Of a stretch of 64,000 bases of DNA, positions 2,681 through 39,266 are shown in pieces. The notes below the pieces were generated by a model, which worked only from the letters and a program-made list of their open reading frames with translations, did not search any database and had not been told where the DNA came from. The stretch is from a virus, in IMG/VR virus record IMGVR_UViG_3300045988_142085, positions 172,115 to 236,114 of that record. One strand, given 5' to 3'. How positions within the stretch are numbered: position 1 is the stretch's first letter; every line of letters begins with the position of its first letter. The position numbers and the translations under genes are program-made.

Positions 2681-2684
2681 ACCG

Positions 2685-13179: not shown

Positions 13180-13545
13180 TTAATACACTGAGCCTCCATT
13201 ATCTTGACCATTTTCATCTGGGAAGATATCGCTCTTTAGTTCGCTTTCTTGGTATATTTCAGAACCGTAATCTGCAATCCAGCGACCAGTAACAAGAGGA
13301 CGATCCCCGTATGCTTCAATTATAACATAATCTCCGCCTTTTGGGAACCAATCATCAGGTGAATTTGTTTGTACTGGCATAGCAGGCTCAGTTATTGTTT
13401 CGCCATTTTGTGAAGTATACGTTACTGTACAAGTGCAAGTTTTAGGGTCAGATCCTAAGACTGACCCTTTCAACTTTGCAAACCCGTCATTACGGATCTG
13501 TTGTCCAGCATATGTATCTTTAAATTTATTCTGTATTACTGACAT
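13180..13545 (-). CDS. Small baseplate or distal-tail protein (121 aa).
   Basis: Its start overlaps the stop of the 3123-aa gene by 1 nt. Position immediately after the tape-measure-like protein. Confidence 0.5.
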   Translation of the reverse strand: MSVIQNKFKDTYAGQQIRNDGFAKLKGSVLGSDPKTCTCTVTYTSQNGETITEPAMPVQTNSPDDWFPKGGDYVIIEAYGDRPLVTGRWIADYGSEIYQESELKSDIFPDENGQDNGGSVY

Positions 13546-19500: not shown

Positions 19501-22500
19501 AATTCAGCTTTAGATAAATTTTGATCGATTTCGAAGTAGCCTAATGCGGCTTGCGCAGCACGTTGAGCCGTAGCTTCTTTAGATGCAAAATTAGATTGTT
19601 CGAATTGTTTATAGATAGCAAATCGATTACGAATCGTTCTATCAGTTTGGCGCAATGTTACATTAATTTGAAATAACCCAGGATAATTTACGACAGTCGA
19701 AATCGATACTTGTTCGACGATTACTTCGAATATACCTAATAAGCGAGTGAATTCAGAATCAATTCTGAATGGATAACTCGGTAATGCATTCGGATATTTC
19801 TTTTTAAAATAAGAAATAATCTTCGGGATCTTATCGAAGCGATCGACAGTTTCTTTATCATAAGTCATTACAGAAAATGTTAACGTAGCATCTTGTCCGC
19901 CCATAAACTGAGGAGCCTGACCATGATATGTATTCAATGTCATGTTGGCATATGTATTAGAGAAGTTTGCTGTTAAACCTTGTACTAATACATCTTCTAA
20001 ATACGTTACATATTGAATAGAGCCGATACGTTCAAATTCAGAATCTTCATAATTTTCATATGTCTCTTGATTGCCAGACATTTGAACAGAACCATCAGCA
20101 TTTTGTACAGCAGCAAATTGAGATGCACAATATTCTAAGAATTTAGAATCGCCATCATAAGGAGAATATTCTAATGTGCATTGACCATTATTTTGCTTTA
20201 ACACAATTCTAAAGTTAAATGCGTTATCGGCAAACACCATATCATAATAACTAGTTTCTAAGAACATTCCAGACTGATCGGTATTCTGAATATTATCAGA
20301 CATGTTCTGATTGCCACCACCAGTTAAGGTGGAAACAAACTGTTGTCTTAATAATAAAGATTCATCTCGACTATTATAATCGACACTCGGAATGATTTTA
20401 ATTTTTAAATAATCATTATCTGGGTCTTCATCGAAACTGTACTGAGGTTTAGCTTGTCCGCCGCCAGCAATTGATAGAGCATAATCCTTAGCAGCTTTAG
20501 CTACGTCGATATGTTTTTCTAAGATAGAATAATCGGACGGAATATTTAATTTTTGTAAATAATCGACAATTTCACGACCAGCTGTTGACATTACAGAAGC
20601 TTTATCGCTATAATTAAATTTATATTTTTTAAGAATATTATTAATTTGATCGCTATGAATCGTTTTATAATATTGATTTGCGATCGCAAACAATTCTTTA
20701 TCTTTTTCAGATGGACGATAATAGTTAGGAGCTTTATTATTACTATGAGTAAAAGTCTGTCTAACTTTCTCCATCTTAACAAGCTTACCTTCGTCAGGCA
20801 TATAAATATTAATTCTAGGATTTAATGTGTCGACCGGCATATAAGCAGATCGATTTGCGAACAATGTTTTCTTCATAAAATCTTTAGAAGAAATATTCAT
20901 CTTTCGATCGTGAAGGTCTTGTCCTAATTGCAATGGTCGTTGAATATACCAACGTAATAAATCATAGTTGATTGTCTTTGCAAAGAAGTTGCGATAAATA
21001 TCGACAACGCCATCTTGTAAGTCACGCTGTTTAGGAACTTGAGGCATAAATACTTGATAATCAAATTCTTTAAGCAACAGCGTTACTTTTAATAATTTAG
21101 GATAGTTCGGAACTGTCGCTACCGACATCGATTCAAAACAAATAGCATCGATATCGAGAACTTCATTAATATATTTATTTTCGATTGGCATATATGGAGC
21201 AAAATGGAATTCAGATAGCAACGCCCGGAATCCATTCATATGATATACGACTTTTTTCTTTTTATCACTAAGATTTGTATACCACTCTACAGGTTGTCCG
21301 TTAATACCACGGTCTTCGTTAAAGTATAATTCTAATTGTAAAAATCGTTCAGGTTTTGCATTTTCAATATTAGCAGAACCTTTCGCACGAAGTAACGGAA
21401 CAGAATTTGTATAAGCTTGTGTTACCGTATTGATAGAAATAGGTGGAACAAATAACGTTACATCTCCGATTGTACAAGTCCAATCGGAGATAGAATTTAA
21501 TCCTTTAGTAATGTTATTCCAACCAAACGCTTTATTCTGAATATCGTGACGATTATCGTATTGTGATGTAGCGTTCCATACTGCATCAGTCCAAGCTTTC
21601 GTATCGTATTGATATGCCCAAGGTTTAAGATGAGGATTCGTAAAATCAGAATACTTTAAAATAGAAGTATTACGATGGCGAGCAATGATATATTTATTTA
21701 AATTAATCCATTGTCCATCTTTATCTTTTACGAAAATAACAGCTAAGTTACGACGATAATGTTCTAAACCATATGCGTTAATGCCTGTTTCTTGGAATAC
21801 GGTAGGATCTTGTCCAGTAAAGAATTTATTAAATGTATTAAAATAGTTAGCTAATAATCCATTACCAGGAAAGCTAATCATATTCTTAGGGTATGCCGTA
21901 GTTTGATCCTGTTTAGAAGAGCCATTGATATCGATAACGGCACGAACTTCTTGTGCGTTCTTTACCATATTTACGACATCATTAGCCGCAGCATATGCTA
22001 CTTCTAATGTACCGTAATTAGTTCCGTCAGCCATTAAACCAAATACAGGTTTACGTCCATTTAATAATGTAGAAGATCCGCCAAAACGTTTTTCGGTTAA
22101 ATAATCATTTACTTGGATCCATTTATTGTCGAACTCGCCGATTTGAGCAATCGTAACAGTATCGCTATCTTTATAACGTTCCCATTTAGAACCGTTCTTA
22201 TTGCTACTAGAATCATAAGCTTTCGTTAAAAAAGCTTGATAATTTTGAACGGCTTCACCGTATGTAACTTGTTTAACGTCAGTTGCATATACGATAGACC
22301 AGTGATGAACTTCTGGTGCATCGTAGAATAAGAAACGGAAGCCCATATCATAATCAAGACTTCTATTTTCGTCTTTTACTTTGTTCGCATCCAGAACATC
22401 TTCTGTCGCTTTTTTATTGCCGGCTAACCATGCTCGCATGTTTTGCTGACCGACACACAGATATTCTAACAGTTCTGGATCTTTTACTTCTGCTTTTCTT

Positions 22501-22916
22501 AAATCGGCATATAAAGTATCACCATCGACAAAACCAGCATGTAAATCTTCATCTGTAATTCTAAAAGCAGATGGAGGAAGGCTGACCATAGCCAGCCCTC
22601 TCAATCTATCAATACCAGTGTTTTCTAATGGAGGATTTTCTTTATAGAACAAAGCCTGTTCTTTTGAATCGCCCATCTTTTTAGCGAGCTCTTCATAAAT
22701 TCTCATGTCGACTGCGCCTTCTTCAAAGTCGGCTAATTCCGGAAGGCTCATCTGAGTATCTCGAACCATTTGGTCAAGCTCTTCTTTTGATCCTTCAGTC
22801 GGATTATTAGGAATATCTTCCTTTTTTGTCTCGACTTGATCGGAAGCCTTCTTGCCGACTTTTTGACCTAAGTGTTGAGTCGCATAGTTAACACCTGGCT
22901 TTTTATCTTCCGCCAT
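13545..22916 (-). CDS. Giant virion protein (3123 aa). The C-terminal third has tape-measure-protein character: coiled coils plus Gly/Ala-rich hydrophobic segments.
   Basis: A 9.4-kb ORF. It contains segments such as GGAIGSRGGSVGAGAGSLIGGAIGTGIELG and VLMVAAAYTLGRWG, flanked by long K/E/A-rich coiled-coil stretches. It lies between the other two giant genes and the baseplate genes. Confidence 0.55.
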   Translation of the reverse strand: MAEDKKPGVNYATQHLGQKVGKKASDQVETKKEDIPNNPTEGSKEELDQMVRDTQMSLPELADFEEGAVDMRIYEELAKKMGDSKEQALFYKENPPLENTGIDRLRGLAMVSLPPSAFRITDEDLHAGFVDGDTLYADLRKAEVKDPELLEYLCVGQQNMRAWLAGNKKATEDVLDANKVKDENRSLDYDMGFRFLFYDAPEVHHWSIVYATDVKQVTYGEAVQNYQAFLTKAYDSSSNKNGSKWERYKDSDTVTIAQIGEFDNKWIQVNDYLTEKRFGGSSTLLNGRKPVFGLMADGTNYGTLEVAYAAANDVVNMVKNAQEVRAVIDINGSSKQDQTTAYPKNMISFPGNGLLANYFNTFNKFFTGQDPTVFQETGINAYGLEHYRRNLAVIFVKDKDGQWINLNKYIIARHRNTSILKYSDFTNPHLKPWAYQYDTKAWTDAVWNATSQYDNRHDIQNKAFGWNNITKGLNSISDWTCTIGDVTLFVPPISINTVTQAYTNSVPLLRAKGSANIENAKPERFLQLELYFNEDRGINGQPVEWYTNLSDKKKKVVYHMNGFRALLSEFHFAPYMPIENKYINEVLDIDAICFESMSVATVPNYPKLLKVTLLLKEFDYQVFMPQVPKQRDLQDGVVDIYRNFFAKTINYDLLRWYIQRPLQLGQDLHDRKMNISSKDFMKKTLFANRSAYMPVDTLNPRINIYMPDEGKLVKMEKVRQTFTHSNNKAPNYYRPSEKDKELFAIANQYYKTIHSDQINNILKKYKFNYSDKASVMSTAGREIVDYLQKLNIPSDYSILEKHIDVAKAAKDYALSIAGGGQAKPQYSFDEDPDNDYLKIKIIPSVDYNSRDESLLLRQQFVSTLTGGGNQNMSDNIQNTDQSGMFLETSYYDMVFADNAFNFRIVLKQNNGQCTLEYSPYDGDSKFLEYCASQFAAVQNADGSVQMSGNQETYENYEDSEFERIGSIQYVTYLEDVLVQGLTANFSNTYANMTLNTYHGQAPQFMGGQDATLTFSVMTYDKETVDRFDKIPKIISYFKKKYPNALPSYPFRIDSEFTRLLGIFEVIVEQVSISTVVNYPGLFQINVTLRQTDRTIRNRFAIYKQFEQSNFASKEATAQRAAQAALGYFEIDQNLSKAELYPDLELPTIKELGELGFEFIRYKNPRDQVFVDPDFYFFYHEHLFSELLRDCILQDSKMLQMFAKPDEDGNPSGELKILSDLSEAAQYSMRHGMIAQNGGISEMTAKDWQLTQEKLNQMKKEENEQRMKLFKSGIATGQWKVGKSIGVTFLEPYYAWLYHNLNTEDGQKEADKAKEKVEEAAPVVKNDIQKNAEFDVVGDDVKEGAEKKVNEVKKEGGENALKSVIVDSINTFQWEADKALKFLSETSIEDEGSEEALIQYFKNIIVETKSVDTTLTSKWNADINDWLNKFAWSALASGFSTDLEPEKAKSIIMYMGQALANGAQENGGQYGLWGQSVKLNGKSNSIFNDPNYNKDKDDSKDKKSDLEFNVKNFKPTRYTINGLTYVRHLDDTSDFYSYGSCTELGPYGIPCFTQKEFEENPMLQFLPIDYNKRRKKFLDKGFTFEASDRYYFLDPYYQTSDHDETIQYMKYCMHDMNYAKHAFLRNVLYWLCVLIKKNIYPNYMTDIMFQNAVSEASAYEFMKDMKLANDVQEKNVKTLKNFVKDNQDKFVKGKLFVATALSLMCKDSSLIKKIVTRDYNALNALTHKVITPNITTTAPLTNDEVSLRKLLYGLVLSGLVEKIEELGIDIATDNPIAQIQREFMQQLELEANAMTPKALARRIRDSYLNMVQTDVRGRMLRGFPTFQIMFIDEGASSGFWKMHDSFYSTNAVSSIQVVKSKNIAADTAIIQLNNLYQNILAEYEDDGQGDNFTTQLQYGVAGLENLYDSIFNPRTYVRNLSEKQALIPERNSIKLVAGARMHIRMGYSADAAKLPVMFNGTVTEIQGGDVVSIVGQGDGIELSNPIREDNFGDKIKNRGVKYLGESPYGLSFGGVSPRVLVSSFLTCQDQNYASQLFREKNWNILSRVFSNNPFGIYHYGDPYYRDIFVNGEPVQNIYEVTNDSSAHYYNFRKNTDITNLFNSDSLQFENGASEQGQQHWYRSLGSVIGIDPPEQGHQFISIKTQGRTVWDMLQFAASANPSYIGATDYFGFRSTVFMGLPNWYYAYKYIKNNKQLNVLEKRKPYSQFHMYWSDHDILSNQIQTNSNKVATVAKGMYQFEEVKKSTPDIYFDRDIYPEYQRSMVVDTWLHGRTQVHTSSENTFGIDSEIGSLDSYATVTGAFTSVVGGAIGSRGGSVGAGAGSLIGGAIGTGIELGLKNVASWAISNFAPDNYGGPEHNHAQTARLMTLSRLKKSVEQIYSGNLVVYGDPTVKPHDRISIFDEPNSMTGQARVREVVHTLSATTGFVTTITPDAIVDVLNDKTTQAVNMAITSTLMRIAIYALGVYNLQRAYIVRAIIDDGWGLFARAKGWAAAEYAEKVSNDLNRIKKRQNALESFYKKIKTREAGIKTALDAAKEAKDEAKIAELEAKLLAVETRLAKYDPIKSSLALSKYELQGREGISKVLNAWSEASSNFEKANLEISKKVFNLRMPEFTKLSNEADVFKVNKDNFVKKKIEELANVEDLDKFDRGGKANLESLYKQQAEEAFNKEYKKRIDKLKAYSKETQSLIKDVQSINNTKKGQETLAALKAKPEISKKIIDATSKDILMKSKAGALFNKIAGSTIGRYLSSALNFGSKIGGNVLMVAAAYTLGRWGDMISDFIQNYKTLSVTPLLKRGMPFIPAWAGNSGTIFMSPNWGKRGQVLDLMDSVFNHRFQDQEGYHPIAGSLSFILNASMGGGPADALQRYQLNADGNMYANNMGGDYEYLVNQNYVDGLLQRGSIRSVEQLLMRNNEENDKDKQEIKMRAEQFMHNIEDVQKDNTSILDPLVPVPGPEFDIFKQFKFFVVRHEKALNNEESKNTVEFSVNQGGKPVKVIGIKGKDGDGNEIVDAPLLHPFALNTLRKIIFQAEQMLSYKTTTDQNTYINKVSNDYITLTSCYLFGTKKIFPGSGFGFTLIAHGESKDNLKVIMDTLKEKDELTYQVYDNDDGKVYQVNVNIPKLGA

Positions 22917-30700: not shown

Positions 30701-33700
30701 TTATAAGAATGATAACGCTTTATCTATTTTGTAACCAATAACAGAAGTTACATTAGTTACTATATCTATTATACCATCTTGTTGCGTAGGATTCACCTGT
30801 ATTTGTTTTTCAGTTAAACCGATACCACTTAATACAGTATTGATTTTAGCTCGGACAGTAATAGGATCATCGCCATTTCTAATATTTTCTATATTAGGGG
30901 CGTTGATAACTTCTGGATCTTCATAGGTCGAAGAATAAATACCGAAGTCTGCATATTGCATTCCTTCATTGTATATTACTTTCGCCTTAATATCTTCAAG
31001 GTTAGAAGATGCCTCCCAACCTTGCCATAATGGCCCAGGAAGATTGTGCGTCGTAAAGTACGATTCATTAGATTCTGTTTCAGTTTCTTCTTGATACCAT
31101 ACAAGTTTTAATGCTTTAGCTAATGATGGAGATACGTTACGTAAGATAGCTCGTCGTTGTTTTTCGTTAGTTACTTTAGCAAACTCGACAAAATATTCTT
31201 TTTCGGTACTAGGTAATGCACGAATAATATCGGAATATTCACTATCTTTATTTAACGCATATACAGTAGATTCAGCTACTTGATGATACATAATAGCCTG
31301 TTCTGTCCATTCGCCAGCAGCAAGTGTCGTCATATCTTCGCTAAGACGACCGAATTTTTTATTAATCCATTGAGCTAATGGATCGTTAGACGGAGTACCA
31401 GAAGTTAATACGGATGCCATCATATCGGTAATCGATACATCGCCATCCATCTCGGCACGAAGAGCTGCTTGATGTTGATATAACTTATCGACATCAACGC
31501 CTTCTTCAGATTTAGCTTTTTCTTTAGCAGCTTCATATAGACCCATATATTTTATATAACGGAGTCTATCGAAGTATTCTTCTGTATCCCAACGCTTTTC
31601 TACGTTATCAGGAGTATATACATGGTCGAGACCTAACGCCTCTGTAATCGGATTATTCTTAGCTAATGCGATCGCTAAACCAGTACCAGCAAAAGCTGCA
31701 GCTTGTAGCATACGACTAGCACGAGTTCGCTTAGCAAAATCGACTAATTTTTCAATACCTTTATTATCGACATTGCCAAAGATACCTTCGGCAAATCTAC
31801 CGATAATAGATTCGTCAGAAACAAATTTATCGAATAGATTTAAATGGCTTCCAATATCATAACCCATACGTCCCCATGCATATGTCGCATACATAGGATC
31901 GTCTGTCGATGTCGCCATTGCAAATGCATTACCGGCAAATCTAAACGCACGAGAAAGTTTTTCTTTACGTTCTACGGCATTAGCACCAACAAAAGTAAAA
32001 CGACCTGTGATTTCACCGGCTAATGCTGGACCGTCTAAATATGTCGAGGCAAATTTAGCAACAGCTAATCTAGATTTAGAAGCATTATCTAAAGCTCGAC
32101 TATTTAGTCCTTTATAATAACGATATGCACTATCGGCAACCAAATCTTTTACGAACGATGTTTTACTTTGTTCGAATGTCGGAACAAGCATCGTATCGAT
32201 GATATCTTCCCATGAAGCAAAGCCGCTACCGTATAATTGATCACTACGATATTCTTCTAGTGGGTCATTAATTCTCATGAATTGACTATGCAAAATCGGA
32301 ATTTGTGCATGCGTAACTAATTCGGCAGCACTACCAAAAATACGTCCAAATGTATTGTAGTTAGCATATGCACCGGCAGCAGAACTGTCGTCCATATCGT
32401 ATTCAGCTAACCCGACTTCTCGCAATGTATCCGAGATATTCTCGCCGTTTAAAAATAACGCTGCACGAATCGGAGCTTGTGGTGCATCTGGATTATCGGT
32501 ACGTTCTTCATCGTCGATACGCATTGTCACTCGTTGTCCAGGTTGGATAACTTGCAATAATTGTTGTTTCGACATGAAGCCGTTTTCTTTAAATTTTACA
32601 CCGGCAATTTGATATAAACGATCGTCGCCAGCAATTTTAAATTTGCCGTTAGATAATACTTCTTCGATATGCCCTTCTTGAGACACAGTCGTTTTTCCTA
32701 AGAATTTATAATTAAAGAAATCATGTTTTTTACCCTGATGTTTAACCATCTCTTCAGTATCTTGCAATACTTTTTTGGCTTCGTCAGAGTTCATCATCTT
32801 AACGATTTGTTTCCAATATTTATACTCTGGACTATTCGGAGCAATGTCGGCTAATATTTTATAACGGTCAATAGCACCATAGCCATCAGATGCAAATTGA
32901 TCTGGATGTAAAGCATTGATAGCTTCATATCCTTTACCAGGAAGACGAGCTTCTGCATTAGGTAGAGATGTATTATGCGTAGCAAAACCAACAACACAAA
33001 AAGAATTATTTTGATTTACTTGATAGCCATATACTTCTTTAATAGTATTTATTTCTTTAATGTCTTCAATTCTTAAATAAAGATATCCATTATTTATATA
33101 ATGATGAGAAGATTCTCTTGCTCTGTTATTTATTGGTAATAATGATTTACCGAATAATAATTCAGACAGTATAGAAGCTTTTTTGCCCCTAATATTCAAA
33201 CTATAAGATATTCCAGCTGTTACAAGATATTTAGTAATTCTTATTTTTTTAGAAGTTTTATTGTGAATATTTATTGATCCAACAATATTAAATCTTAATA
33301 ATAATTTTCTTACTTGATACAACAATTTTTTATTGCAAGATGTAATACTAATCTTTTCTGTTTCCTTGCCATATCCAGATTTCATTACAAAGTTAGATCC
33401 ATCGCCACATATATAGCCTTCTAATAATCCTAGAACGCATTCTTCTTTTGCATCCCAGAAGAATTCTGGAATCTTCTTATCATGAGCACCTTTATTAAAT
33501 AATACATCTAATAAAGATGCAATTATAGATGATCCAAAACGAGAATAAGCACCATTTGTAACGCCTGATCTTTTAAAAGAAAAGTTAATATATGAATCTA
33601 TTTGCTTAAATCCTAAGAATGCATTATATGCATAATCTCGCTCATTAATATTATGAGCCATTCCAATGGAGCATCCATTGTTCCAGCCTTCTGCAAGGTA

Positions 33701-36700
33701 TAAACCAAATGCATAACATATTTGTTTTGTTAATACAATTTTTCTAGGAATTCTTCTTATTTTTCTATTATGCTTTATGTAAGCTTGAACACTTTCGTAA
33801 ACTCTATCATTCCAGTTCATTTTTTCTAAGAGTTTTTTTCTTTCTCCTCGATTAAATTTTGGAACGCCATATTTTTCAAAATATTCATATATTTCAACAA
33901 ATTGTCTATTTTTTGTATTAATTTTATATAAATATTTTTCTGTTGAAATATATTCTGGTAATAATAATCCTAAATCTAATATTATTTCTTGATTTTTAGA
34001 TTTTGGAATAGGATAAGCGACATAGTTACCAATTTTAATGTCTTTTACTTTTTTCCAAGATAATCTATTTTTCAATAAATTAATATCATATAATTTATAT
34101 TTTTTTAAATGAATATTATGTTTATCTAATTTATAATCATAAATTAAATTATCTTGGAACATTTTTTTCCATAATTGACAAACATCATTTATAGAAATAT
34201 TAACAAGATCAGCTAAATCTTTTTTAGATGTTATTCCATTCTTTAATGCATTTAATACAGTATTTGCTCTTTTGTAATATGATAAAGAATTTCCAGATAA
34301 TTCTTTTGTTACATTATTAGAAGATTCAGTAACTAATAATGGATGATTTTCAGAAAATTCATAATCAAATGCAAATAAACTATTAACTTTTAACGAATAA
34401 ACTTTTTCTTTTAATTCTATTTTACGACAGACAATTTTATTTACGACTGTATTTTGACCAGTATGATCAATAATTATTGATTGATTTTCTACTACTTCAT
34501 CAGCAGCTAAATAGTCAAGATTGCCTATTTCTACCATTGTATTTTTTGAAATACAGTATGCATCGCCCATATAGAATTTTTCTGGAAGCCAAGCATGTTG
34601 ATCTGCCATTGTATTCATCAACGGATTAACACGTCGTCTTCTCGAAAATTCCGGTAAGAAACGACGGCTAATTTCGGCTGTTTCACCGCCGAGACCACCT
34701 ATACCAGCATCCCAGAATTGACGAGTGAATGAATCGATATCGCCAGCATTAGCAATGAATTTAGATTCGTCACGGCCGAATGCTTGAGATCCGATATAAC
34801 CATAAATACCGGTTAATAATCTTGAAGTAGTTTGTAATTCATCTAAATAATCACGACCACCATTTGAATTCATTAAATTATTATATAGGTCGGCATTATT
34901 TAAAATTTCTTCCAACGATCCTTTAGGTCTACCACGTTTAACACGTTGTTGTATATACATACCATTAGGATTAGTATAAGGAGAACTACCAGAATAAATA
35001 GCATTATTCATAGCAGAAATAGTACTTCCTGTGCCATTAGTAACAGGCTGTAAACTTGCTACTTCAGGATTTACTGTTCCGTCAGGATTAATATACTTAA
35101 CGTAATCGGCTGCCGATGCGTACATCGGTGCTTGTGGTGCATATTGTTGATCGCCACTTTGCACATATTCATTATCAGTCGGATGATCGAATGCCGTAAA
35201 ATCATATACGCCAAGACGTCCATTTTGGAATATTAGATAACGAGTATCTTGAGACTGCTCTTGTATTTGCTGGTTCATATGGTACATGACTGCTTTAACG
35301 TCACGACCGAACCACATTCTATCCTCATGGTATTTTTTCTTAGGCTTAATTATTTCACCTAATGTCGGATTAAGAATTAAACCTTGAAGAGTATTAGATT
35401 CAAACAAAGGACCTGATTCTAAATAAGGTCTATCTTCTGAATGCATCTCTTCTAACCAATAAGGATTAAGAGCATATATTAATGGAGATAAAGGGTTAGA
35501 TAATGTCGGTATTGGACTATGCATCCATTTATTAAAGTAACCGCCATAAATACCTTCAGTCTTATAATCAGACTTAGCTAACTTTAAACTATTATCTTCC
35601 CAATATGAAATACTAGAACCACGGAATTCATTCGTAGAACCCCATACCCAATAACGACCAGCACGAATTGGATCCTTACCGTTTTGATAATAATCTAATC
35701 GTTCCTCATAAGATTGATAAGGGCGATAATCGCCACTGATATACTGGGCCATTGGGTTAGCCATTTTAGCTAACTTAAATACATCGGTTAACCCTGTAGC
35801 ATCAGTAAATTTTCTAAAGCCTAAATCGATATTCGCTAAACCAGTTTGGAAATTTTCATTTAAATTAAATGTGTCGTCTGCCCAGTCAAATTGTGTATAT
35901 AAAAAACTAGCAGGCAATACACGTTTAAATAAAAGTTTGTCGATTATTTCTAAGCTGCTTCTTGAGGCATTTTCATGTAGTCCAAGACCATGACCAAATG
36001 TAAGAACTCGAGCAACTGCTCTTGTTGCAACGTTATTTACGACACCGGTAAAAGCACCTGGATCAAGCATATTAAGGCCGCCACTTAATCGGCTAACCAT
36101 CTTATATAAAGTCGACCCTGCTACAGATAAATCATTTGCTGTGCTATTATTAGAAAAATCTAAATGGCCACCAGTAACTTTACCTAACCATGTTGTTTGA
36201 CTTAATTTAGAATTCGCAAACAATCCTTTAGCCGAATCAGAAATTCCTTGCATTAATCCATTAAGATCGCCACTATTCCAAGAAGTAATTATCTTCTTAA
36301 CATCGAGCGATTTTCTTGCTAAAACTGGAGCAGCAGCATTTCCCTTTTTACCGAAATCATAATGGATATCTTTGCCATTACCTAAATAATGCCCGAGTAT
36401 TCTATCGGCTTCAGGACTATCGTCTAATGTATCTTGTATTTTCTTAAATACGGCAGAACCAATATCTTGCTTATCTCGATTAAAGTTATGTCGATCTTTA
36501 ATAACGTTAATACCAGATTCTTTTTTATACTTTTCTAAAGTATACATATCTTTTAGTTTTTGTTTTTCACCTGGAGATATGTTTAAAGAATCTATTTTAG
36601 CATAAGCTTCTGCTTGTGTTTTGCCTAAAGAATCGACAGCATTTTTAACGACGGCTTCATTAACTGTTTCTTCGACAGATTTAATTTTATATAAAGCTTC

Positions 36701-38440
36701 ACTACCGATACCGATACCGTCATCGCGTAAACGAGCATTAATTTTTTTGCCGTCGCTAGCAGCTTTAACGACACTTAATAAATCTAAGTTATCGACCTGA
36801 TCAACGTCGATATCCCGCAAGATTCTTCTTTTAGCACTTTCACTTTTTGCATGATATACATCACGTATTTTAGAAAGTGTATCTTTTTTAATGCCTTCTT
36901 TTGATGCGGCTAAATCGAGAACGATTTTCTCAGTATTTTTTTCTAAGTCGATATCGATACTTTGTACGGCACGAGCATGAGAATAGGCACGTCTGCCTAA
37001 TGCTGCTAATTCTGATTCGCTTAGCTGGTCTATATTAGTATTTCTTAATGCGTATAAATTATTGCCGTCTACATCAGTTAGTCTTTTAGCGCCTTCACTT
37101 CTGCCAAGCTGAGCCCAATTAGTTTTCTCTTGTTGAACACCATATTGACTCATTATACGACCATGATGAACTATATCGTCATTAGTAGAATGCCAATTGT
37201 ATCCGCTAATATCCATTTGTTCCATCTTACCGGTCGTAAGATCTTGGCGATATAATTTGTCTCGATTACGAACTAATAATGTTCCTTCCTTTTGGAAGTT
37301 AGCCATACCGAGTTTAAACTGAGCGTTAGAATAAACATCGACGCCTAACTGATTTCGAGGCGATAAATCATCGAGACCAAATAACTTACCAGCTAATGTA
37401 TCGCCGACAATTCCTTTTGCTTCAGATTTTATTTTATCTAAATTAGGAGTATTTAATACTTCGCCATCGACATACTTAGTGCTATCATTATATTTAGCAT
37501 TTTCAAATAAATCTGCTAAGAAAGCTGTTCTACTATCACTGCGTATTTTATCGAGAGCATTATCGACATCGATGATATCTCGTTTACCGTTACGAGATAC
37601 GATCGGAACATCGAGAGCACCATTATCGATTGCTGCATCAGCTTGCTTTTGTTTTACAAAATCGGCTAATGCAAAATCATGAATTTCTCCAGTCTTTTTA
37701 GCTTGATGCTTTTCTAGTAGTTCTCCAATATCTCTGATTTGATTCTCGATAAAATTCTCGGTAATCTTTTCGCCGCGGCCACCAACACTTTGCCAATCTT
37801 CAAAACTTTGTTTTCTTGTTAAGTTTCGAATAGTTCGTAATGCTACATTTGTATCATCAAATTCTGCATACTCTGACTCGCCATCCATAACGACGTCTCT
37901 TAATGTATTTTTAAGACGTTCAGAGAACCCGACAGTGCCGTCATATCGTTGAGATGGAACGATATTATTAATAGCGTCGACCATGTTGTCGATCGTTGCT
38001 TGATTGACGCCGGCATCTTTAAAATCGGTTGCTATCGAATCGATTACTTGAGCATGATATAATCCTTGTAAATTCTTTTCTGCATCTGCTTGTAAATTTA
38101 ATGTACGATTAAGAGTGTCACGAAGAATATCGGTTTGTTTGTCGGCCGTTACTGCAGATGAAGGTTTAGGAAAATTTCCTCTTAATGCTTGATTAGCATA
38201 TCCTTCTAACTCAGATAATGTAATAGCATTAGCGCCATCATCCGTTATTTTTGAGAGTCTACGCTCTACTTGTCCTATAATAGGATCGAGTTTAGATAAA
38301 ACTCTCGCCCCTCTTTTTGTTCTAGAAAAAGCAAAAGCGGCCCCGACGAGTCCGCCGGTAGCCGCTACTGTATCAACAAAAGAGTCGGCAGGACTATCAG
38401 AAGGAGCTTCTATTCCTTTAAATAAATAATCGTCAGCCAT
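30701..38440 (-). CDS. Giant virion protein (2579 aa precursor, ~2051-aa extein) interrupted by an in-frame intein. C-terminal Ala/Gly-rich hydrophobic segment.
   Basis: A 7.7-kb ORF directly downstream of two chaperone-like genes. The extein junction reads ...KFYMGDAY / TSLPNAEARLPG.... The C-terminal region contains AAAFAGTGLAIALAKNNP. Confidence 0.55.
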   Translation of the reverse strand: MADDYLFKGIEAPSDSPADSFVDTVAATGGLVGAAFAFSRTKRGARVLSKLDPIIGQVERRLSKITDDGANAITLSELEGYANQALRGNFPKPSSAVTADKQTDILRDTLNRTLNLQADAEKNLQGLYHAQVIDSIATDFKDAGVNQATIDNMVDAINNIVPSQRYDGTVGFSERLKNTLRDVVMDGESEYAEFDDTNVALRTIRNLTRKQSFEDWQSVGGRGEKITENFIENQIRDIGELLEKHQAKKTGEIHDFALADFVKQKQADAAIDNGALDVPIVSRNGKRDIIDVDNALDKIRSDSRTAFLADLFENAKYNDSTKYVDGEVLNTPNLDKIKSEAKGIVGDTLAGKLFGLDDLSPRNQLGVDVYSNAQFKLGMANFQKEGTLLVRNRDKLYRQDLTTGKMEQMDISGYNWHSTNDDIVHHGRIMSQYGVQQEKTNWAQLGRSEGAKRLTDVDGNNLYALRNTNIDQLSESELAALGRRAYSHARAVQSIDIDLEKNTEKIVLDLAASKEGIKKDTLSKIRDVYHAKSESAKRRILRDIDVDQVDNLDLLSVVKAASDGKKINARLRDDGIGIGSEALYKIKSVEETVNEAVVKNAVDSLGKTQAEAYAKIDSLNISPGEKQKLKDMYTLEKYKKESGINVIKDRHNFNRDKQDIGSAVFKKIQDTLDDSPEADRILGHYLGNGKDIHYDFGKKGNAAAPVLARKSLDVKKIITSWNSGDLNGLMQGISDSAKGLFANSKLSQTTWLGKVTGGHLDFSNNSTANDLSVAGSTLYKMVSRLSGGLNMLDPGAFTGVVNNVATRAVARVLTFGHGLGLHENASRSSLEIIDKLLFKRVLPASFLYTQFDWADDTFNLNENFQTGLANIDLGFRKFTDATGLTDVFKLAKMANPMAQYISGDYRPYQSYEERLDYYQNGKDPIRAGRYWVWGSTNEFRGSSISYWEDNSLKLAKSDYKTEGIYGGYFNKWMHSPIPTLSNPLSPLIYALNPYWLEEMHSEDRPYLESGPLFESNTLQGLILNPTLGEIIKPKKKYHEDRMWFGRDVKAVMYHMNQQIQEQSQDTRYLIFQNGRLGVYDFTAFDHPTDNEYVQSGDQQYAPQAPMYASAADYVKYINPDGTVNPEVASLQPVTNGTGSTISAMNNAIYSGSSPYTNPNGMYIQQRVKRGRPKGSLEEILNNADLYNNLMNSNGGRDYLDELQTTSRLLTGIYGYIGSQAFGRDESKFIANAGDIDSFTRQFWDAGIGGLGGETAEISRRFLPEFSRRRRVNPLMNTMADQHAWLPEKFYMGDAYCISKNTMVEIGNLDYLAADEVVENQSIIIDHTGQNTVVNKIVCRKIELKEKVYSLKVNSLFAFDYEFSENHPLLVTESSNNVTKELSGNSLSYYKRANTVLNALKNGITSKKDLADLVNISINDVCQLWKKMFQDNLIYDYKLDKHNIHLKKYKLYDINLLKNRLSWKKVKDIKIGNYVAYPIPKSKNQEIILDLGLLLPEYISTEKYLYKINTKNRQFVEIYEYFEKYGVPKFNRGERKKLLEKMNWNDRVYESVQAYIKHNRKIRRIPRKIVLTKQICYAFGLYLAEGWNNGCSIGMAHNINERDYAYNAFLGFKQIDSYINFSFKRSGVTNGAYSRFGSSIIASLLDVLFNKGAHDKKIPEFFWDAKEECVLGLLEGYICGDGSNFVMKSGYGKETEKISITSCNKKLLYQVRKLLLRFNIVGSINIHNKTSKKIRITKYLVTAGISYSLNIRGKKASILSELLFGKSLLPINNRARESSHHYINNGYLYLRIEDIKEINTIKEVYGYQVNQNNSFCVVGFATHNTSLPNAEARLPGKGYEAINALHPDQFASDGYGAIDRYKILADIAPNSPEYKYWKQIVKMMNSDEAKKVLQDTEEMVKHQGKKHDFFNYKFLGKTTVSQEGHIEEVLSNGKFKIAGDDRLYQIAGVKFKENGFMSKQQLLQVIQPGQRVTMRIDDEERTDNPDAPQAPIRAALFLNGENISDTLREVGLAEYDMDDSSAAGAYANYNTFGRIFGSAAELVTHAQIPILHSQFMRINDPLEEYRSDQLYGSGFASWEDIIDTMLVPTFEQSKTSFVKDLVADSAYRYYKGLNSRALDNASKSRLAVAKFASTYLDGPALAGEITGRFTFVGANAVERKEKLSRAFRFAGNAFAMATSTDDPMYATYAWGRMGYDIGSHLNLFDKFVSDESIIGRFAEGIFGNVDNKGIEKLVDFAKRTRASRMLQAAAFAGTGLAIALAKNNPITEALGLDHVYTPDNVEKRWDTEEYFDRLRYIKYMGLYEAAKEKAKSEEGVDVDKLYQHQAALRAEMDGDVSITDMMASVLTSGTPSNDPLAQWINKKFGRLSEDMTTLAAGEWTEQAIMYHQVAESTVYALNKDSEYSDIIRALPSTEKEYFVEFAKVTNEKQRRAILRNVSPSLAKALKLVWYQEETETESNESYFTTHNLPGPLWQGWEASSNLEDIKAKVIYNEGMQYADFGIYSSTYEDPEVINAPNIENIRNGDDPITVRAKINTVLSGIGLTEKQIQVNPTQQDGIIDIVTNVTSVIGYKIDKALSFL
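32972..34555 (-). mobile_element. Intein (528 aa) with an embedded LAGLIDADG homing endonuclease domain, inserted in the 2579-aa giant protein.
   Basis: Starts with Cys (CISKNTMVEIG; Cys codon at 34553-34555) and ends with ...VVGFATHN followed by extein Thr (codons at 32972-32977). Contains LAGLIDADG-type motifs GLYLAEGWNNG and LLEGYICGDGSNF. The region is markedly AT-richer than the flanking extein DNA. Confidence 0.7.
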
Positions 38441-38462: not shown

Positions 38463-39266
38463 TTAATTATTATTTCTAAGTTCAGCTAACTCTGCAAGTG
38501 TCATATCATGAGGATTTTTACCGCTTAATGCTACTTCACGAATAGAGTTTTCATCGCCTTGATTTACAAATGCTTCTGGGAACATAGCTTTTAGTTCGTC
38601 TTCAGACATTTGTTGTTTACGTCTTTTTGGACGTTTAACTGTTGGTTTTGGTTTTTTAATTTCTTCCGGAGGCTTTTCTCGTTGTTCTCTTAACTTATCG
38701 AAGTATTGTTTTTCTTCGTTAAACAAACGAGGATCGTCTTGTTTAAACGATACGTTACTGCCAGCATCGAGAAGTTTTTCCATATCGAGACCGCCACGAC
38801 CATGGATGTTTTTTAAGATCCATTCGCTTCTTGCTAAGAAATCCATTGTTCTAACCATATCCCAATTATCGATATCTTCGATATCGTATTCAGGGAATGC
38901 TTCATGGATTACACAAGAGATTTGTTTATCGACATTTTGCATATTATCGACAGCATTTAAATAAAGAATTTCTCGGCCTCGTTTGCTCATGAAACTAGCA
39001 TCGAGAATCTTCTGTGCTAAATCGGCAATAAGACCAGCTGGCTGTGCTCCGATATCGAAATTTTCAGGATATAAGATACAGTTATAACAAACAATATCTT
39101 CACGCTCCACATCCATAAGTTGTTCATTTTCGAATAGCTCATAGTATTGTGAACGAGTTAACGGTCGATAAATTACGATACCGTCCGGGAATCCTGTATA
39201 AGTAAAAACAGTTTTATATTTTTCTTTTAGTTGTGTAAATATTTCATCGAAACGTAATTCTTCCAT
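38463..39266 (-). CDS. Acidic protein (267 aa), candidate tail assembly chaperone.
   Basis: Sits immediately upstream (in transcription order) of the first giant tail-lumen gene. Acidic, with a basic K/R-rich tail segment. Confidence 0.35.
   Translation of the reverse strand: MEELRFDEIFTQLKEKYKTVFTYTGFPDGIVIYRPLTRSQYYELFENEQLMDVEREDIVCYNCILYPENFDIGAQPAGLIADLAQKILDASFMSKRGREILYLNAVDNMQNVDKQISCVIHEAFPEYDIEDIDNWDMVRTMDFLARSEWILKNIHGRGGLDMEKLLDAGSNVSFKQDDPRLFNEEKQYFDKLREQREKPPEEIKKPKPTVKRPKRRKQQMSEDELKAMFPEAFVNQGDENSIREVALSGKNPHDMTLAELAELRNNN

What the first reader, a model, noticed from the sequence alone, without database searches (positions are those of the whole stretch)
32972..34555. Intein with LAGLIDADG endonuclease inside a giant tail-lumen protein
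The 2579-aa ORF contains an in-frame 528-aa insertion. It begins with Cys (CISKNTMVEIG), contains two LAGLIDADG motifs (GLYLAEGWNNG, LLEGYICGDGSNF), and ends VVGFATHN followed by Thr. This is a textbook class-1 intein with a homing endonuclease. Inteins nearly always target catalytic or otherwise highly conserved sites of enzymes such as polymerases, terminases, helicases and RNR. The insertion therefore flags the extein junction KFYMGDAY/TSLPNAE of this giant virion protein as functionally critical, possibly an active site. The protein may be the partner of the neighbouring RNAP-like giant protein.
Basis: seen in the sequence. Interest (0 to 1): 0.75.

Follow-up and report, generated by a model that had tools for sequence, protein, structure and literature searches.

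The report
Homing intein in phage tail protein
A genuine self-splicing intein with its own homing endonuclease interrupts the second most conserved stretch of a giant tail-module protein of unknown function in a phage assembled on contigs of up to about 236 kb; the element is ordinary, but the host gene is unusual and is hit repeatedly by inteins and introns.

Summary
Window 32972-34555 (minus strand) is an in-frame 528-codon insertion in the 2579-aa ORF 30701-38440. It starts with Cys, ends His-Asn and is followed by Thr.

It is a canonical class-1 intein with a LAGLIDADG homing endonuclease:
- All splicing and endonuclease blocks align with known inteins.
- The AlphaFold model matches PI-PkoII, PI-SceI and VMA inteins.
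- GC is 24.6% against 37.3% in the rest of the ORF.
- An intein-less allele has exactly the spliced length (2051 aa, 94.8% identical).

The host is a homologue of Bacillus phage 0305phi8-36 gp145, a virion protein encoded between the tail chaperones and the tape-measure gene. Its family has at least 1,600 clusters and no assigned function.

The intein sits in the second most conserved 30-residue window of that family. Homologous inteins occupy the same site in five other family representatives. Other members carry inteins at three further sites, and a group I intron lies 9 nt upstream of this site.

"Active site" is not shown, because no fold could be assigned to the junction block. The "RNAP-like partner" idea has no support: that neighbour sits in the tape-measure position.

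Verdict: a new member of a known kind, in an unusual host gene.

The parts
30701..38440 (-). Precursor ORF, 2579 aa. It is a homologue of Bacillus phage 0305phi8-36 gp145, a giant virion structural protein of the tail module.
   Evidence: ORF list and translation. tblastn matches gp145 and relatives over spliced residues 818-2040 at 28-32% identity, E down to 7e-59. gp145 is annotated as identified in virions by mass spectrometry. The family holds 1620 clusters at E<=1e-3.
34556..38440 (-). N-extein, aa 1-1295, ending ...NPLMNTMADQHAWLPEKFYMGDAY.
   Evidence: The last 61 residues belong to the top-ranked conserved blocks of the family.
32972..34555 (-). Intein, 528 aa: a HINT splicing domain split by a helical insert and a LAGLIDADG homing endonuclease.
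34517..34555 (-). Intein block A (CISKNTMVEIGNL). Cys1 is the N-terminal nucleophile.
   Evidence: Aligns with CLPPNESI, CFKKGAPI and CVAPGTLI of SufB, NifU and oxidoreductase inteins. It is invariant in 13 population variants.
34328..34375 (-). Intein block B (FAFDYEFSENHPLLVT), with the motif S68-x-x-H71.
   Evidence: Aligns with the TxxH of other inteins. Ser replaces Thr in all six same-site inteins. S68 and H71 are invariant in 13 variants.
33746..34294 (-). Helical insert between block B and the endonuclease, intein aa ~88-270. It has weak winged-HTH similarity and is probably an accessory DNA-binding region.
   Evidence: The AF2 model shows helices at 88-134 and 217-261. There is a weak Pfam wHTH hit at E=0.06. 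The region is conserved in 5 of 6 same-site inteins. The DNA-binding role is inferred.
33146..33742 (-). LAGLIDADG endonuclease domain, intein aa ~272-470. Motif 1 is GLYLAEG (E289, nt 33686-33712). Block D is K360..P363. Motif 2 is LLEGYICGDG (D385, nt 33398-33430).
   Evidence: Pfam LAGLIDADG_3 at E=1.5e-9. E289, K360, P363 and G384-D385-G386 are invariant across the intein alignment and in 13 variants. pLDDT is mostly above 85 in this region. Foldseek hits I-DmoI and I-Tsp061I.
32972..33037 (-). Intein blocks F and G (EVYGYQVNQNNSFCVVGFATHN), ending in His527-Asn528.
   Evidence: Aligns with VYNFSVEDDESYIAHGIAVHN and similar sequences. Position F:4 is Gly where relatives have Asn or Asp, and this Gly is conserved in all six same-site inteins.
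32969..32971 (-). +1 Thr codon, the C-extein nucleophile.
   Evidence: Thr is invariant in 13 variants and in the five other same-site intein hosts.
30701..32971 (-). C-extein, aa 1824-2579 plus the stop codon, starting TSLPNAEARLPGKGYEAINALHPD...
32822..32971 (-). C-extein half of the conserved junction block (TSLPNAEARLPGKGYEAINALHPDQFASDGYGAIDRYKILADIAPNSPEY).
   Evidence: It covers the C-terminal 18 residues of the second most conserved 30-aa window and the whole of the most conserved one. Invariant residues in the 12-sequence alignment are listed.
32330..32707 (-). Staphylococcal-nuclease-like OB-fold domain in the C-extein, ORF aa ~1912-2037.
   Evidence: This is the only confident part of the extein AF2 model (pLDDT 70-85). 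Foldseek matches SNase structures at E~5e-4, TM(target) ~0.55. By my own visual alignment, not a tool result, the Ca-binding Asp residues of SNase are not conserved.
38463..39266 (-). Upstream neighbour, a homologue of the 0305phi8-36 gp144 tail chaperonin.
   Evidence: BLASTP E=2e-14, 29% identity.
22931..30688 (-). Downstream neighbour, 2585 aa, in the position of gp146 ('hypothetical tape measure protein').
   Evidence: Synteny. No sequence match to gp146 or to anything else.
13545..22916 (-). Homologue of the gp147-like baseplate hub, 3123 aa.
   Evidence: BLASTP to 0305phi8-36 gp147 at E=2e-54. phrog_20474 at E=4.5e-149.

Best explanation
The 1584-nt segment is a mobile intein. The 2579-aa precursor is translated whole.

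Splicing (inferred mechanism, the standard class-1 pathway):
1. The HINT domain is formed by intein residues ~1-80 and ~485-528.
2. Cys1 makes an N-S acyl shift.
3. Thr+1 attacks the resulting thioester.
4. Asn528 cyclises, helped by His527.
5. The exteins are joined as ...KFYMGDAY-TSLPNAE..., giving the mature 2051-aa tail-module protein plus a free 528-aa intein.

Homing (inferred): the free intein, or the precursor, is a single-chain LAGLIDADG endonuclease with catalytic E289 and D385. During mixed infection it would cut intein-less alleles of the same gene at the GDAY|T site. Repair from the intein-bearing copy then copies the intein in.

Persistence: the element survives because it sits in a stretch the phage cannot change or delete imprecisely. 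That stretch belongs to the conserved core of a gp145-like giant virion protein.

Shown here: the anatomy, homology, fold, empty-site alleles, site conservation, and a population pattern consistent with constraint on the key residues. Inferred: actual splicing, endonuclease activity and homing.
For: Sequence blocks:
- C1, S68xxH71, LAGLIDADG E289, K360/P363, G384-D385-G386, the F block and H527-N528 followed by +1 Thr all align with inteins of SufB, RpoA'', NifU and others.
- A profile containing this sequence hits PI-PkoII at E=7e-39. It also hits VMA, TFIIB, RadA and DnaB inteins and I-DmoI.

Fold:
- The AF2 model has pLDDT 78 and pTM 0.74.
- Foldseek top hits are 2cw7 (5e-14), PI-SceI (2e-13), TliVMA (5e-13, TM target 0.70) and PI-PfuI.

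Empty site:
- P0044 is 2051 aa, 94.8% identical and gapless, on a 133-kb contig with the same gene order.
- Ten or more further homologues align gaplessly across the junction.

Foreign composition: GC 24.6% against 37.3%.

Same-site relatives:
- Five other family representatives carry a homologous intein at GD[PA][YF]|C...THN|T. Four are 35-37% identical over the full length and one is 25%.
- Their exteins are 29-40% identical to ours, so intein and host have diverged together.

Constraint on key residues:
- Among 13 variants in the 90% cluster the intein differs at 10-20% of residues, against 3-6% for the extein.
- Every splicing and endonuclease key residue is invariant and the length stays 528 aa. 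No formal selection test was run.

Site conservation: the junction lies in the second most conserved 30-aa window of 138 aligned family proteins.

Recombination signature: the first 30 nt 3' of the junction are 60% identical to the closest intein-less allele, against 90.6% overall. That places the region among the most divergent 60-nt windows of the gene.
Against: - Nothing was assayed. Splicing, cleavage and homing are inferred.
- The Pfam Intein_splicing score (32.2 bits) is below its gathering cut-off of 35.8.
- Block B has Ser instead of the usual Thr, and block F position 4 is Gly instead of Asp or Asn. Both are conserved in the whole same-site lineage, which argues for tolerated lineage traits rather than decay, but their effect on splicing rate is unknown.
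- The divergent 3' flank is not strictly linked to the intein. Intein-bearing alleles occur with both the TSLPN(A/G)E and the TK(V/I)INGE flank. The 'co-conversion tract' reading is therefore only one possibility.
- Another region, about 1455 nt upstream of the junction, is equally divergent.
Confidence: 0.88

Rival explanations
1. The intein has been co-opted as a conditional switch. Splicing is delayed or triggered, for example by redox state at Cys1 or by assembly state. The giant tail protein would then become functional only at the right moment, so the element is kept for regulation as well as by selfish homing.
For: - The intein-bearing allele dominates the sampled population: 114 sequences in its cluster, against 36 for the P0001 cluster (itself a 1077-aa C-terminal fragment) and 1 for P0044.
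- The same-site intein lineage has diverged in step with its host gene.
- The unusual but conserved S at block B and G at F:4 could tune splicing kinetics. This last point is inference.
Against: - Closely related phages do without it (P0044 and L007 at 94.8% aa identity; P0001; L004).
- The endonuclease catalytic residues are invariant among the variants, which is what selfish homing predicts.
- The intein evolves about four times faster than the extein.
- No data on splicing kinetics exist.
Confidence: 0.1
2. The insertion is an intein-derived domain that no longer splices. It stays in the mature protein as a 528-aa internal module, for example a DNA-binding or nuclease module of a virion protein.
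For: - The Pfam splicing-domain score is below its cut-off.
- There are non-canonical residues at block B (Ser) and F:4 (Gly).
- Family members tolerate another large insertion, a Cas4-like nuclease domain, 23 residues downstream.
Against: - All four residues essential for chemistry (C1, H527, N528, T+1) and H71 are present. They are invariant in 13 variants and in five distant same-site relatives. Such conservation would be unnecessary in a non-splicing domain.
- The insertion splits the second most conserved block of the family.
- The model places the N- and C-terminal strands in one HINT domain.
Confidence: 0.04
3. The segment is not protein-spliced at all. It would be an intron-encoded or free-standing LAGLIDADG gene that only appears to be in frame, removed at the RNA level like the group I intron found 9 nt upstream in related phages.
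For: - Homologous genes in L003, L008 and L009 are interrupted at G|D by a group I intron. In L008 it carries a LAGLIDADG ORF, and in L009 an uncharacterised ORF.
- The window itself has two strong group I introns elsewhere.
Against: - No Rfam intron match at the gathering threshold exists anywhere in 30.7-38.4 kb.
- The reading frame is continuous with both exteins, with zero stops in 528 codons of 25% GC DNA.
- HINT blocks A/B and F/G flank the endonuclease.
- The L008 intron-encoded LAGLIDADG protein shows no significant similarity to the intein.
Confidence: 0.01
4. The insertion is an assembly chimera or a contaminating sequence joined into the ORF.
For: A sharp GC discontinuity at both ends.
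Against: - The exact precursor sequence is recorded on 4 contigs in the cluster table, and 5 contigs carrying it were read in the contig look-up. They come from JGI/IMG, Logan and ENA data, and the longest is 236 kb.
- 113 other cluster members were found. The 14 others examined are 2577-2579 aa.
- Junctions are codon-precise.
Confidence: 0.01

Closest known systems
PI-PkoII (Thermococcus kodakarensis DNA polymerase intein 2, PDB 2cw7) and PI-PfuI (1dq3)
   Same: Large class-1 inteins with a LAGLIDADG endonuclease and an extra domain between the splicing and endonuclease parts. They are the best profile hit (E=7e-39) and the best fold hit (E=5e-14).
   Different: Only about 13% sequence identity in the structural alignment. 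They are archaeal inteins in a DNA polymerase. Here the host is a phage virion protein of unknown function, block B has Ser and F:4 has Gly.
PI-SceI and the VMA inteins (1vde, 7qsu, 7qss)
   Same: The same two-domain architecture: a HINT domain with a nested single-chain LAGLIDADG endonuclease. Foldseek E=2e-13 to 5e-13, TM(target) up to 0.70. Homing into empty alleles is the paradigm (established knowledge).
   Different: Their host protein is an ATPase catalytic subunit and the insertion is in the nucleotide-binding region. Here no enzymatic site can be assigned.
Phage inteins catalogued in mycobacteriophages (terminase large subunit, portal, primase, RecB/Cas4-like nuclease and others; Kelley et al. 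2016, PMC5050341)
   Same: Sporadic distribution among close relatives, insertion at conserved motifs, and several insertion sites in one protein family (seven in TerL).
   Different: That survey found inteins in nucleic-acid-binding proteins, and none was reported in tail genes. Its text does not contain 'tail' or 'tape measure'. Here the host is a tail-module giant protein whose link to nucleic acid is only indirect.
DNA gyrase A of Staphylococcus jumbo phage MarsHill (intein) versus Bacillus phage AR9 (two introns) (bioRxiv 10.1101/2020.12.14.422802)
   Same: [quoted passage not shown] Here the intein (Y|T) and a group I intron (G|D) lie 9 nt apart.
   Different: Gyrase is an enzyme with a known active site. 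Here the target is a conserved block of unknown role.
Bacillus phage 0305phi8-36 gp145 (ORF145, virion structural protein)
   Same: Homologous over the C-terminal ~1200 residues at 28% identity. Same position between the gp143/gp144 tail chaperonins and gp146/gp147.
   Different: gp145 has no intein. It carries a ~230-aa Cas4-like PD-(D/E)xK nuclease domain inserted 23 residues downstream of the intein site, which the window protein lacks.

Membership tests
Class-1 intein (HINT splicing domain) | N-terminal nucleophile (Cys or Ser) as the first intein residue (block A) | tested here: met
   Cys1 (CISKNTMVEIG) aligns with Cys1 of the SufB, NifU and oxidoreductase inteins. It is invariant in 13 variants and in 5 same-site relatives.
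Class-1 intein (HINT splicing domain) | Block B TxxH motif | tested here: met
   S68-E-N-H71 aligns with TxxH. The His is conserved. Ser replaces Thr as a conservative change shared by all six same-site inteins.
Class-1 intein (HINT splicing domain) | C-terminal His-Asn (block G) followed by a Cys, Ser or Thr +1 extein residue | tested here: met
   ...GFATHN|T. Invariant in the variants.
Class-1 intein (HINT splicing domain) | Block F with conserved Asp at F:4 | tested here: inconclusive
   Block F aligns (VYGYQV..NNSF), but F:4 is Gly where relatives have Asn or Asp. The Gly is conserved in all same-site inteins. Its functional consequence is unknown.
Class-1 intein (HINT splicing domain) | HINT fold with N- and C-terminal segments forming one domain | tested here: met
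   AF2 model with pLDDT 78. Foldseek matches intein structures over both the splicing and endonuclease parts.
Class-1 intein (HINT splicing domain) | Precise in-frame presence/absence polymorphism among homologous host genes | tested here: met
   P0044 is 2051 aa, exactly the spliced length, and aligns gaplessly at 94.8% identity. More than 10 further intein-less homologues exist.
Class-1 intein (HINT splicing domain) | Curated Pfam threshold for PF14890 Intein_splicing | tested here: not met
   32.2 bits against a cut-off of 35.8 (E=1.1e-7). The model is split by the 400-aa endonuclease insert. The profile and fold evidence compensates.
Class-1 intein (HINT splicing domain) | Protein splicing activity | not testable with these tools
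   Needs expression of a mini-precursor or proteomics of virions.
LAGLIDADG homing endonuclease (single-chain, two-motif) | Two LAGLIDADG motifs, each ending in a catalytic acidic residue | tested here: met
   GLYLAE289G and GYICGD385G. Both acidic residues are invariant in the alignment and in the variants. Pfam LAGLIDADG_3 scores E=1.5e-9, above its cut-off.
LAGLIDADG homing endonuclease (single-chain, two-motif) | alpha-beta-beta-alpha-beta-beta-alpha fold repeated twice | tested here: met
   pLDDT is mostly above 85 over residues 270-430. Foldseek hits I-DmoI and I-Tsp061I at TM(target) 0.6-0.7.
LAGLIDADG homing endonuclease (single-chain, two-motif) | Site-specific cleavage of the intein-less allele | not testable with these tools
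   A candidate target is available from L007.
0305phi8-36 gp145-like giant virion protein family | Sequence homology across the conserved central and C-terminal regions | tested here: met
   tblastn E=1e-35 to 7e-59. The profile search finds 1620 clusters.
0305phi8-36 gp145-like giant virion protein family | Position between the tail chaperonins and the tape-measure and hub genes | tested here: met
   The upstream ORF is gp144-like (E=2e-14). The ORF two genes downstream is gp147-like (E=2e-54).
0305phi8-36 gp145-like giant virion protein family | Presence in the virion or tail lumen | not testable with these tools
   Known only for gp145 itself, by mass spectrometry (annotation). The location inside the tail is not established in the comparative-genomics paper I read.
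Multisubunit-like or virion RNA polymerase (claim about neighbour ORF 22931-30688) | Double-psi beta-barrel domains with a DxDGD metal-binding motif, detectable by profile or structure | tested here: not met
   No Pfam, NCBIfam, PHROG, PDB or phage-database hit. Only one DYDGD pentapeptide at aa 2131. The gene sits in the tape-measure position. No structure prediction was run.

The most novel reading that the evidence does not exclude
The conserved central module of this giant protein family may be a nucleic-acid-handling core of a tail-internal, probably ejected, protein. The family is widespread, with at least 1,600 clusters of mostly ~2,000-2,200 aa.

The pointers are:
- Four separate intein insertion sites and a group I intron site fall on its conservation peaks.
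- An SNase-like domain follows it.
- In one subfamily a Cas4-like nuclease domain is nested 23 residues from the intein site.

If so, the intein marks a previously unrecognised catalytic or DNA-binding site of jumbo-phage tails. This gene would also be a new major reservoir of inteins outside the classical replication and packaging enzymes.
Probability: 0.2. Interest if true: 0.6.

Novelty: new member of a known kind. Interest (0 to 1): 0.4.

Why it matters
The intein itself is canonical, so it teaches nothing new about splicing. The value lies in the host gene.

- Surveys place phage inteins almost entirely in nucleic-acid enzymes such as terminase, polymerase, helicase, RNR and portal (PMC5050341). 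Here a tail-module giant protein with no assigned function is a recurrent target. It carries inteins at four sites and a group I intron 9 nt from this intein site. Eight of the 149 listed family representatives scanned carry an intein.
- These selfish elements act as natural markers of residues the phage cannot afford to change. They point experimenters to three short blocks (GRYWxxGS/TxEFRG, NPYWLE, WLPxxFxxGDPY/TxxxxGEARLPGKGYE) in a ~2,000-aa protein that is otherwise opaque.
- Practically, annotators of such jumbo-phage genomes should expect 2.5-2.7 kb-longer or split versions of this gene.
- The intein, with Thr+1 and a Tyr at -1, is a further natural splicing element from an AT-rich phage found in metagenomes.

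Tried and rejected
- Megablast of the ORF against 50,697 phage genomes gave no match.
- phmmer of the single intein sequence against the PDB gave no match. Only the profile worked.
- Pfam, PHROGs, NCBIfam and a PDB profile search on the extein found nothing usable.
- AlphaFold of the spliced central region (666 aa, 32-sequence alignment) gave mean pLDDT 46. The junction block was unstructured, so no fold search could address the 'active site' idea. Only the SNase-like domain was interpretable.
- BLASTP of the 2585-aa neighbour against gp146 gave no similarity. BLASTP of the window's 3123-aa hub-position ORF against the gene that follows the host-gene homologue in L003, which is probably not its positional equivalent, also gave none. 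Synteny was instead anchored through gp144 and gp147.
- Rfam found no convincing intron in KLEB27-3 (none at E<=0.01; a 19.6-bit hit at E=0.025) and none in L008 or L009. For L008 and L009 the intron call rests on sequence identity of the intron ends to the L003 intron.
- The intron-encoded LAGLIDADG protein of L008 is not detectably related to the intein endonuclease. I therefore dropped the idea of a shared endonuclease lineage.
- P0019, the closest hit to the intein in the first search (35% identity), lacks blocks A, F and G and is not in a homologous host gene. It was not informative.
- I first read the divergent flanks as a clean co-conversion tract. That reading weakened when intein-bearing alleles were found with both flank haplotypes.
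- Pfam and a PDB profile search did not recognise the ~200-aa insertion of the gp145 subfamily. PHROGs did.

Full report
**1. The observation**

The finding lies on the minus strand. ORF 30701..38440 encodes 2579 aa. Residues 1296-1823 correspond exactly to window 32972..34555. They read CISKNTMVEIG ... VVGFATHN, preceded by ...WLPEKFYMGDAY and followed by TSLPNAEARLPG....

The segment is 24.6% GC against 37.3% for the rest of the ORF. The dip to 17-31% coincides with the insertion boundaries. In DNA of this composition a 528-codon open frame has a chance of about 1e-24. The five other frames hold 34-71 stops each.

**2. Is it an intein?**

Domain and homology searches:
- Pfam gives LAGLIDADG_3 (E=1.5e-9). 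Intein_splicing scores E=1.1e-7, at 32.2 bits, slightly under the 35.8-bit cut-off. That model is split here by a 400-residue insert.
- A homology search returns inteins inside SufB, RNA polymerase A'', NifU and an FAD oxidoreductase.

After trimming those to their intein parts, every canonical block aligns:
- block A, with Cys1;
- block B (S68-x-x-H71, Ser in place of the usual Thr);
- LAGLIDADG motif 1 (E289);
- block D (K360..P363);
- LAGLIDADG motif 2 (G384-D385-G386);
- block F;
- block G (H527-N528), followed by Thr+1.

Structure-level evidence:
- A profile of that alignment hits PI-PkoII at E=7e-39. It also hits VMA, TFIIB, RadA and DnaB inteins and I-DmoI.
- An AlphaFold model has pLDDT 78.3 and pTM 0.74.
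- Its best Foldseek matches in the PDB are intein-endonucleases: 2cw7 (5e-14), PI-SceI (2e-13), TliVMA (5e-13, TM target 0.70) and PI-PfuI. Free-standing LAGLIDADG enzymes follow.

The one deviation of note is Gly at block F position 4, where relatives have Asn or Asp.

**3. Empty-site alleles**

Removing exactly the 528 residues gives 2051 aa. An exhaustive profile search of 1.84 billion cluster representatives returns P0044, also 2051 aa, as top hit. It aligns to the spliced sequence without a single gap at 94.8% identity. It reads ...KFYMGDAY|TKVINGEARLPG....

P0044 lies on a 133-kb contig with the same neighbouring genes (571, 212, 185, 267 aa upstream; 2585 aa downstream). More than ten further homologues, from 93% down to about 40% identity, also cross the junction gaplessly. 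A 296-kb NCBI contig (L004) is likewise intein-less.

The intein-bearing precursor is itself common. Its 90% cluster has 114 members. The 15 examined are 2577-2579 aa, and the cluster lies on contigs of up to 236 kb from JGI/IMG, Logan and ENA data.

**4. Population and lineage evidence**

Among 13 equal-length variants of that cluster:
- The intein differs from the window's copy at 10-20% of positions and the extein at 3-6%.
- C1, S68, H71, E289, K360, P363, G384-D385-G386, G510, H527, N528 and T+1 never change.
- The length stays 528 aa.

This pattern is consistent with constraint on both the splicing and the endonuclease residues. No formal selection test was run.

Five other family representatives carry a homologous intein at exactly the same point, GD[PA][YF]|C...(G/A)VATHN|T. 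These are P0072, P0114, P0120, P0130 and P0167. Four are 35-37% identical to this intein over its full length and one is 25%. Their exteins are 29-40% identical.

All six share Ser in block B and Gly at F:4. Those residues are therefore lineage traits, not decay.

**5. Signs of recombination at the site**

Against the closest intein-less allele (L007, 90.6% nt identity overall), the first 30 nt downstream of the junction are only 60% identical. The next 60 nt are 77-83% identical. This region is among the most divergent 60-nt windows in the gene, level with another region about 1455 nt upstream. The same local trough appears against L004 and L005.

This is what co-conversion during homing would leave. 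However, intein-bearing alleles occur with both flank types, TSLPN(A/G)E and TK(V/I)INGE. I therefore treat it as evidence of recombination around the site, compatible with repeated homing. It is not proof of a recent acquisition.

**6. The host protein**

tblastn finds homologues in Bacillus phages 0305phi8-36 (ORF145), Edson, WH1 and KLEB27-3, and in Moorella phage MTATph1. Matches run at 28-32% identity over spliced residues about 818-2040.

In 0305phi8-36, gp145 is a virion protein identified by mass spectrometry. It is encoded after the two tail chaperonins gp143/gp144. It precedes gp146 ('hypothetical tape measure protein') and gp147 (baseplate hub). The comparative-genomics paper assigns tape-measure function to gp146 by length. 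It notes that the chaperonins are 'one gene removed' from it, and it gives gp145 no function (PMC2147016).

The window has the same order:
- tail sheath at 45423-48485;
- a gp144 homologue at 38463-39266 (E=2e-14);
- the intein host;
- a 2585-aa ORF;
- a gp147 homologue at 13545-22916 (E=2e-54; phrog_20474).

The host is therefore a tail-module giant virion protein. 'Tail-lumen' is a reasonable guess from position and from two Gly/Ala-rich hydrophobic segments, but it is not shown.

The family is large: 1620 clusters at E<=1e-3 and 1107 at <=1e-30. Most full-length members are 2000-2200 aa.

**7. How special is the insertion point?**

In an alignment of 138 full-length proteins (137 family representatives plus the window's spliced protein, inteins removed), mean column conservation is 0.33. 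The six best 30-residue windows score 0.66-0.72. The intein site falls in the second best, WLPEKFYMGDAY|TSLPNAEARLPGKGYEAI, at the 97th percentile.

Other mobile elements have found the same peaks:
- P0177 has an intein at GRWWPLGN|T, equivalent to our GRYWVWGS|T.
- P0158 has one at TTEFRG|S, equivalent to our NEFRG|S.
- P0150 has one at DPYWLER|T, equivalent to our NPYWLEEM|H.

In all, 8 of the 149 listed representatives scanned carry an intein.

A group I intron splits the gene between Gly and Asp of ...GD(P/A)Y, 9 nt upstream of the intein site:
- In L003, Rfam RF00028 scores E=2.5e-9, at 42.7 bits, below the 50-bit gathering score. Exon ends and P1 pairing are consistent.
- L008 and L009 have near-identical intron ends. 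L008 also carries a 343-aa LAGLIDADG ORF, and L009 an ORF inside the intron that was not characterised.
- Rfam itself does not call the L008 and L009 copies.

In KLEB27-3 the gene is annotated as two proteins with a 211-aa ORF between them, split about 8-10 codons further upstream. Only a weak intron signal was found there.

**8. Is the junction an active site?**

I could not show it.
- No library recognises the extein.
- AlphaFold on the spliced central 666 residues, with the 32 sequences I was allowed to use, gave mean pLDDT 46. The junction block scored about 28-53 and was largely coil.

Either the alignment was too shallow, or the block folds only in an assembly.

Two indirect hints link the region to nucleic acid:
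- The only confident domain, 90-215 residues downstream, resembles staphylococcal nuclease (Foldseek E~5e-4, TM target ~0.55). By my own visual alignment its Ca-binding Asp residues are not kept.
- A subfamily, including gp145 itself, has a ~200-aa insertion between RLPGxGYE and DRFKILAD, 23 residues after the intein site. PHROGs identifies it as a Cas4-like/RecE-like PD-(D/E)xK exonuclease (phrog_1706 E=3.9e-19; phrog_1990; phrog_434). The H...D...(D/E)xK...QxxxY motifs are invariant.

The window protein lacks that insertion. These hints fit the known bias of phage inteins towards nucleic-acid-binding hosts (PMC5050341). They do not establish a function.

**9. The 'RNAP-like partner'**

ORF 22931-30688 has no hit in Pfam, NCBIfam, PHROGs, the PDB or the phage genome collection. 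It shows no BLASTP similarity to gp146. That paper describes such rapid divergence for tape-measure genes.

Its single DYDGD at aa 2131 is, by my own rough estimate, expected by chance in several percent of proteins of this length. Its position between the gp145-like and gp147-like genes is that of the tape-measure gene. I find no support for an RNA polymerase, though I did not model its structure.

**10. Verdict**

The mechanism has three steps:
1. The precursor is translated whole.
2. Class-1 splicing yields the 2051-aa tail protein.
3. The released LAGLIDADG endonuclease homes into empty alleles during co-infection.

Splicing and cleavage remain inferred.

The kind of element is already well known. 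What is new is the host: an uncharacterised, very widespread jumbo-phage tail-module protein that is a multi-site target of inteins and a group I intron. I rate it a new member of a known kind, with interest 0.4.

Noticed in passing
window 61902-62123 and 62471-62690 (minus strand); ORFs 60823-61407, 62087-62464, 62656-63753: Two strong group I introns (RF00028, 106.6 and 101.4 bits, above the gathering score) flank a 125-aa ORF, so a gene near the portal/packaging end looks split into three exons. The adjacent 365-aa ORF 62656-63753 has LAGLIDADG_3 and HTH domains and is probably another homing endonuclease. The interrupted gene was not identified: the exon ORFs gave no Pfam hits.
   Followed up: partly
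L001 10408-16200 (0305phi8-36 gp145), after GEGYERLYNIDS; also P0143, P0163, P0177, P0183, P0190: A subfamily of the host protein carries a ~200-270-aa Cas4-like/RecE-like PD-(D/E)xK exonuclease domain nested in the conserved block, 23 residues downstream of the intein site (phrog_1706 E=3.9e-19). Pfam and PDB sequence searches miss it. gp145 is annotated only as a virion structural protein in the record, and the comparative-genomics paper I read assigns it no function.
   Followed up: partly
window 32330-32707 (minus strand; ORF aa ~1912-2037): A staphylococcal-nuclease-like OB-fold domain in the C-extein is the only confidently modelled part of the extein. By my own visual alignment the catalytic Ca-binding residues appear not to be conserved.
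   Followed up: partly
P0177, P0158, P0150 (family representatives); equivalent window positions ORF aa 935|936, 941|942, 999|1000: Three further intein insertion sites occur in the same protein family, each in a conserved block (GRYWxxGS|T, TxEFRG|S, NPYWLEx|H). P0158's intein is only ~265 aa with fragmentary endonuclease matches, so it may be a degenerating or mini-intein.
   Followed up: partly
L003 9577-~9990; L008 ~2525-4000; L009 ~1-590: A homologous group I intron interrupts the host-gene family between the Gly and Asp codons, 9 nt upstream of the intein site. It occurs without an ORF (L003), with a 343-aa LAGLIDADG ORF (L008, Hadza gut metagenome), or with another ORF that was not characterised (L009). 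The L008 endonuclease shows no significant similarity to the intein's.
   Followed up: partly
L002 9459-10555 (Bacillus phage KLEB27-3, between gp031 and gp033): The gp145 homologue is annotated as two 'structural proteins' separated by a 211-aa ORF (gp032, no Pfam hit). The exons break around ...NQMPDW / ...DFQHGDPF, a different point in the same conserved block. Only a weak intron signal was found (19.6 bits, E=0.025). This is probably an unannotated intron with a homing endonuclease gene.
   Followed up: partly
No other RNA polymerase evidence was found.
   Followed up: partly
P0193-P0207 (90% cluster of the window's precursor): Within the cluster the intein evolves about four times faster than the extein (10-20% against 3-6% differences). 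Two haplotypes of the five residues after Thr+1 (SLPN(A/G) and K(V/I)ING) both occur with the intein. The second is also the haplotype of the intein-less alleles.
   Followed up: yes
L004 (NCBI GCA_015473185.1, BNJV01000936.1, 296 kb): This related, intein-less phage contig has its giant genes broken into dozens of short gene calls (40-330 aa), consistent with uncorrected indel errors in the assembly. Its annotation of this region is unusable.
   Followed up: no
window 59236-60816 (minus strand): A 526-aa ORF next to the portal gene has a weak CHAP-domain match at its C-terminus (E=4.6e-5, 24.3 bits, below the 26-bit cut-off). It may be a virion-associated peptidoglycan hydrolase.
   Followed up: no
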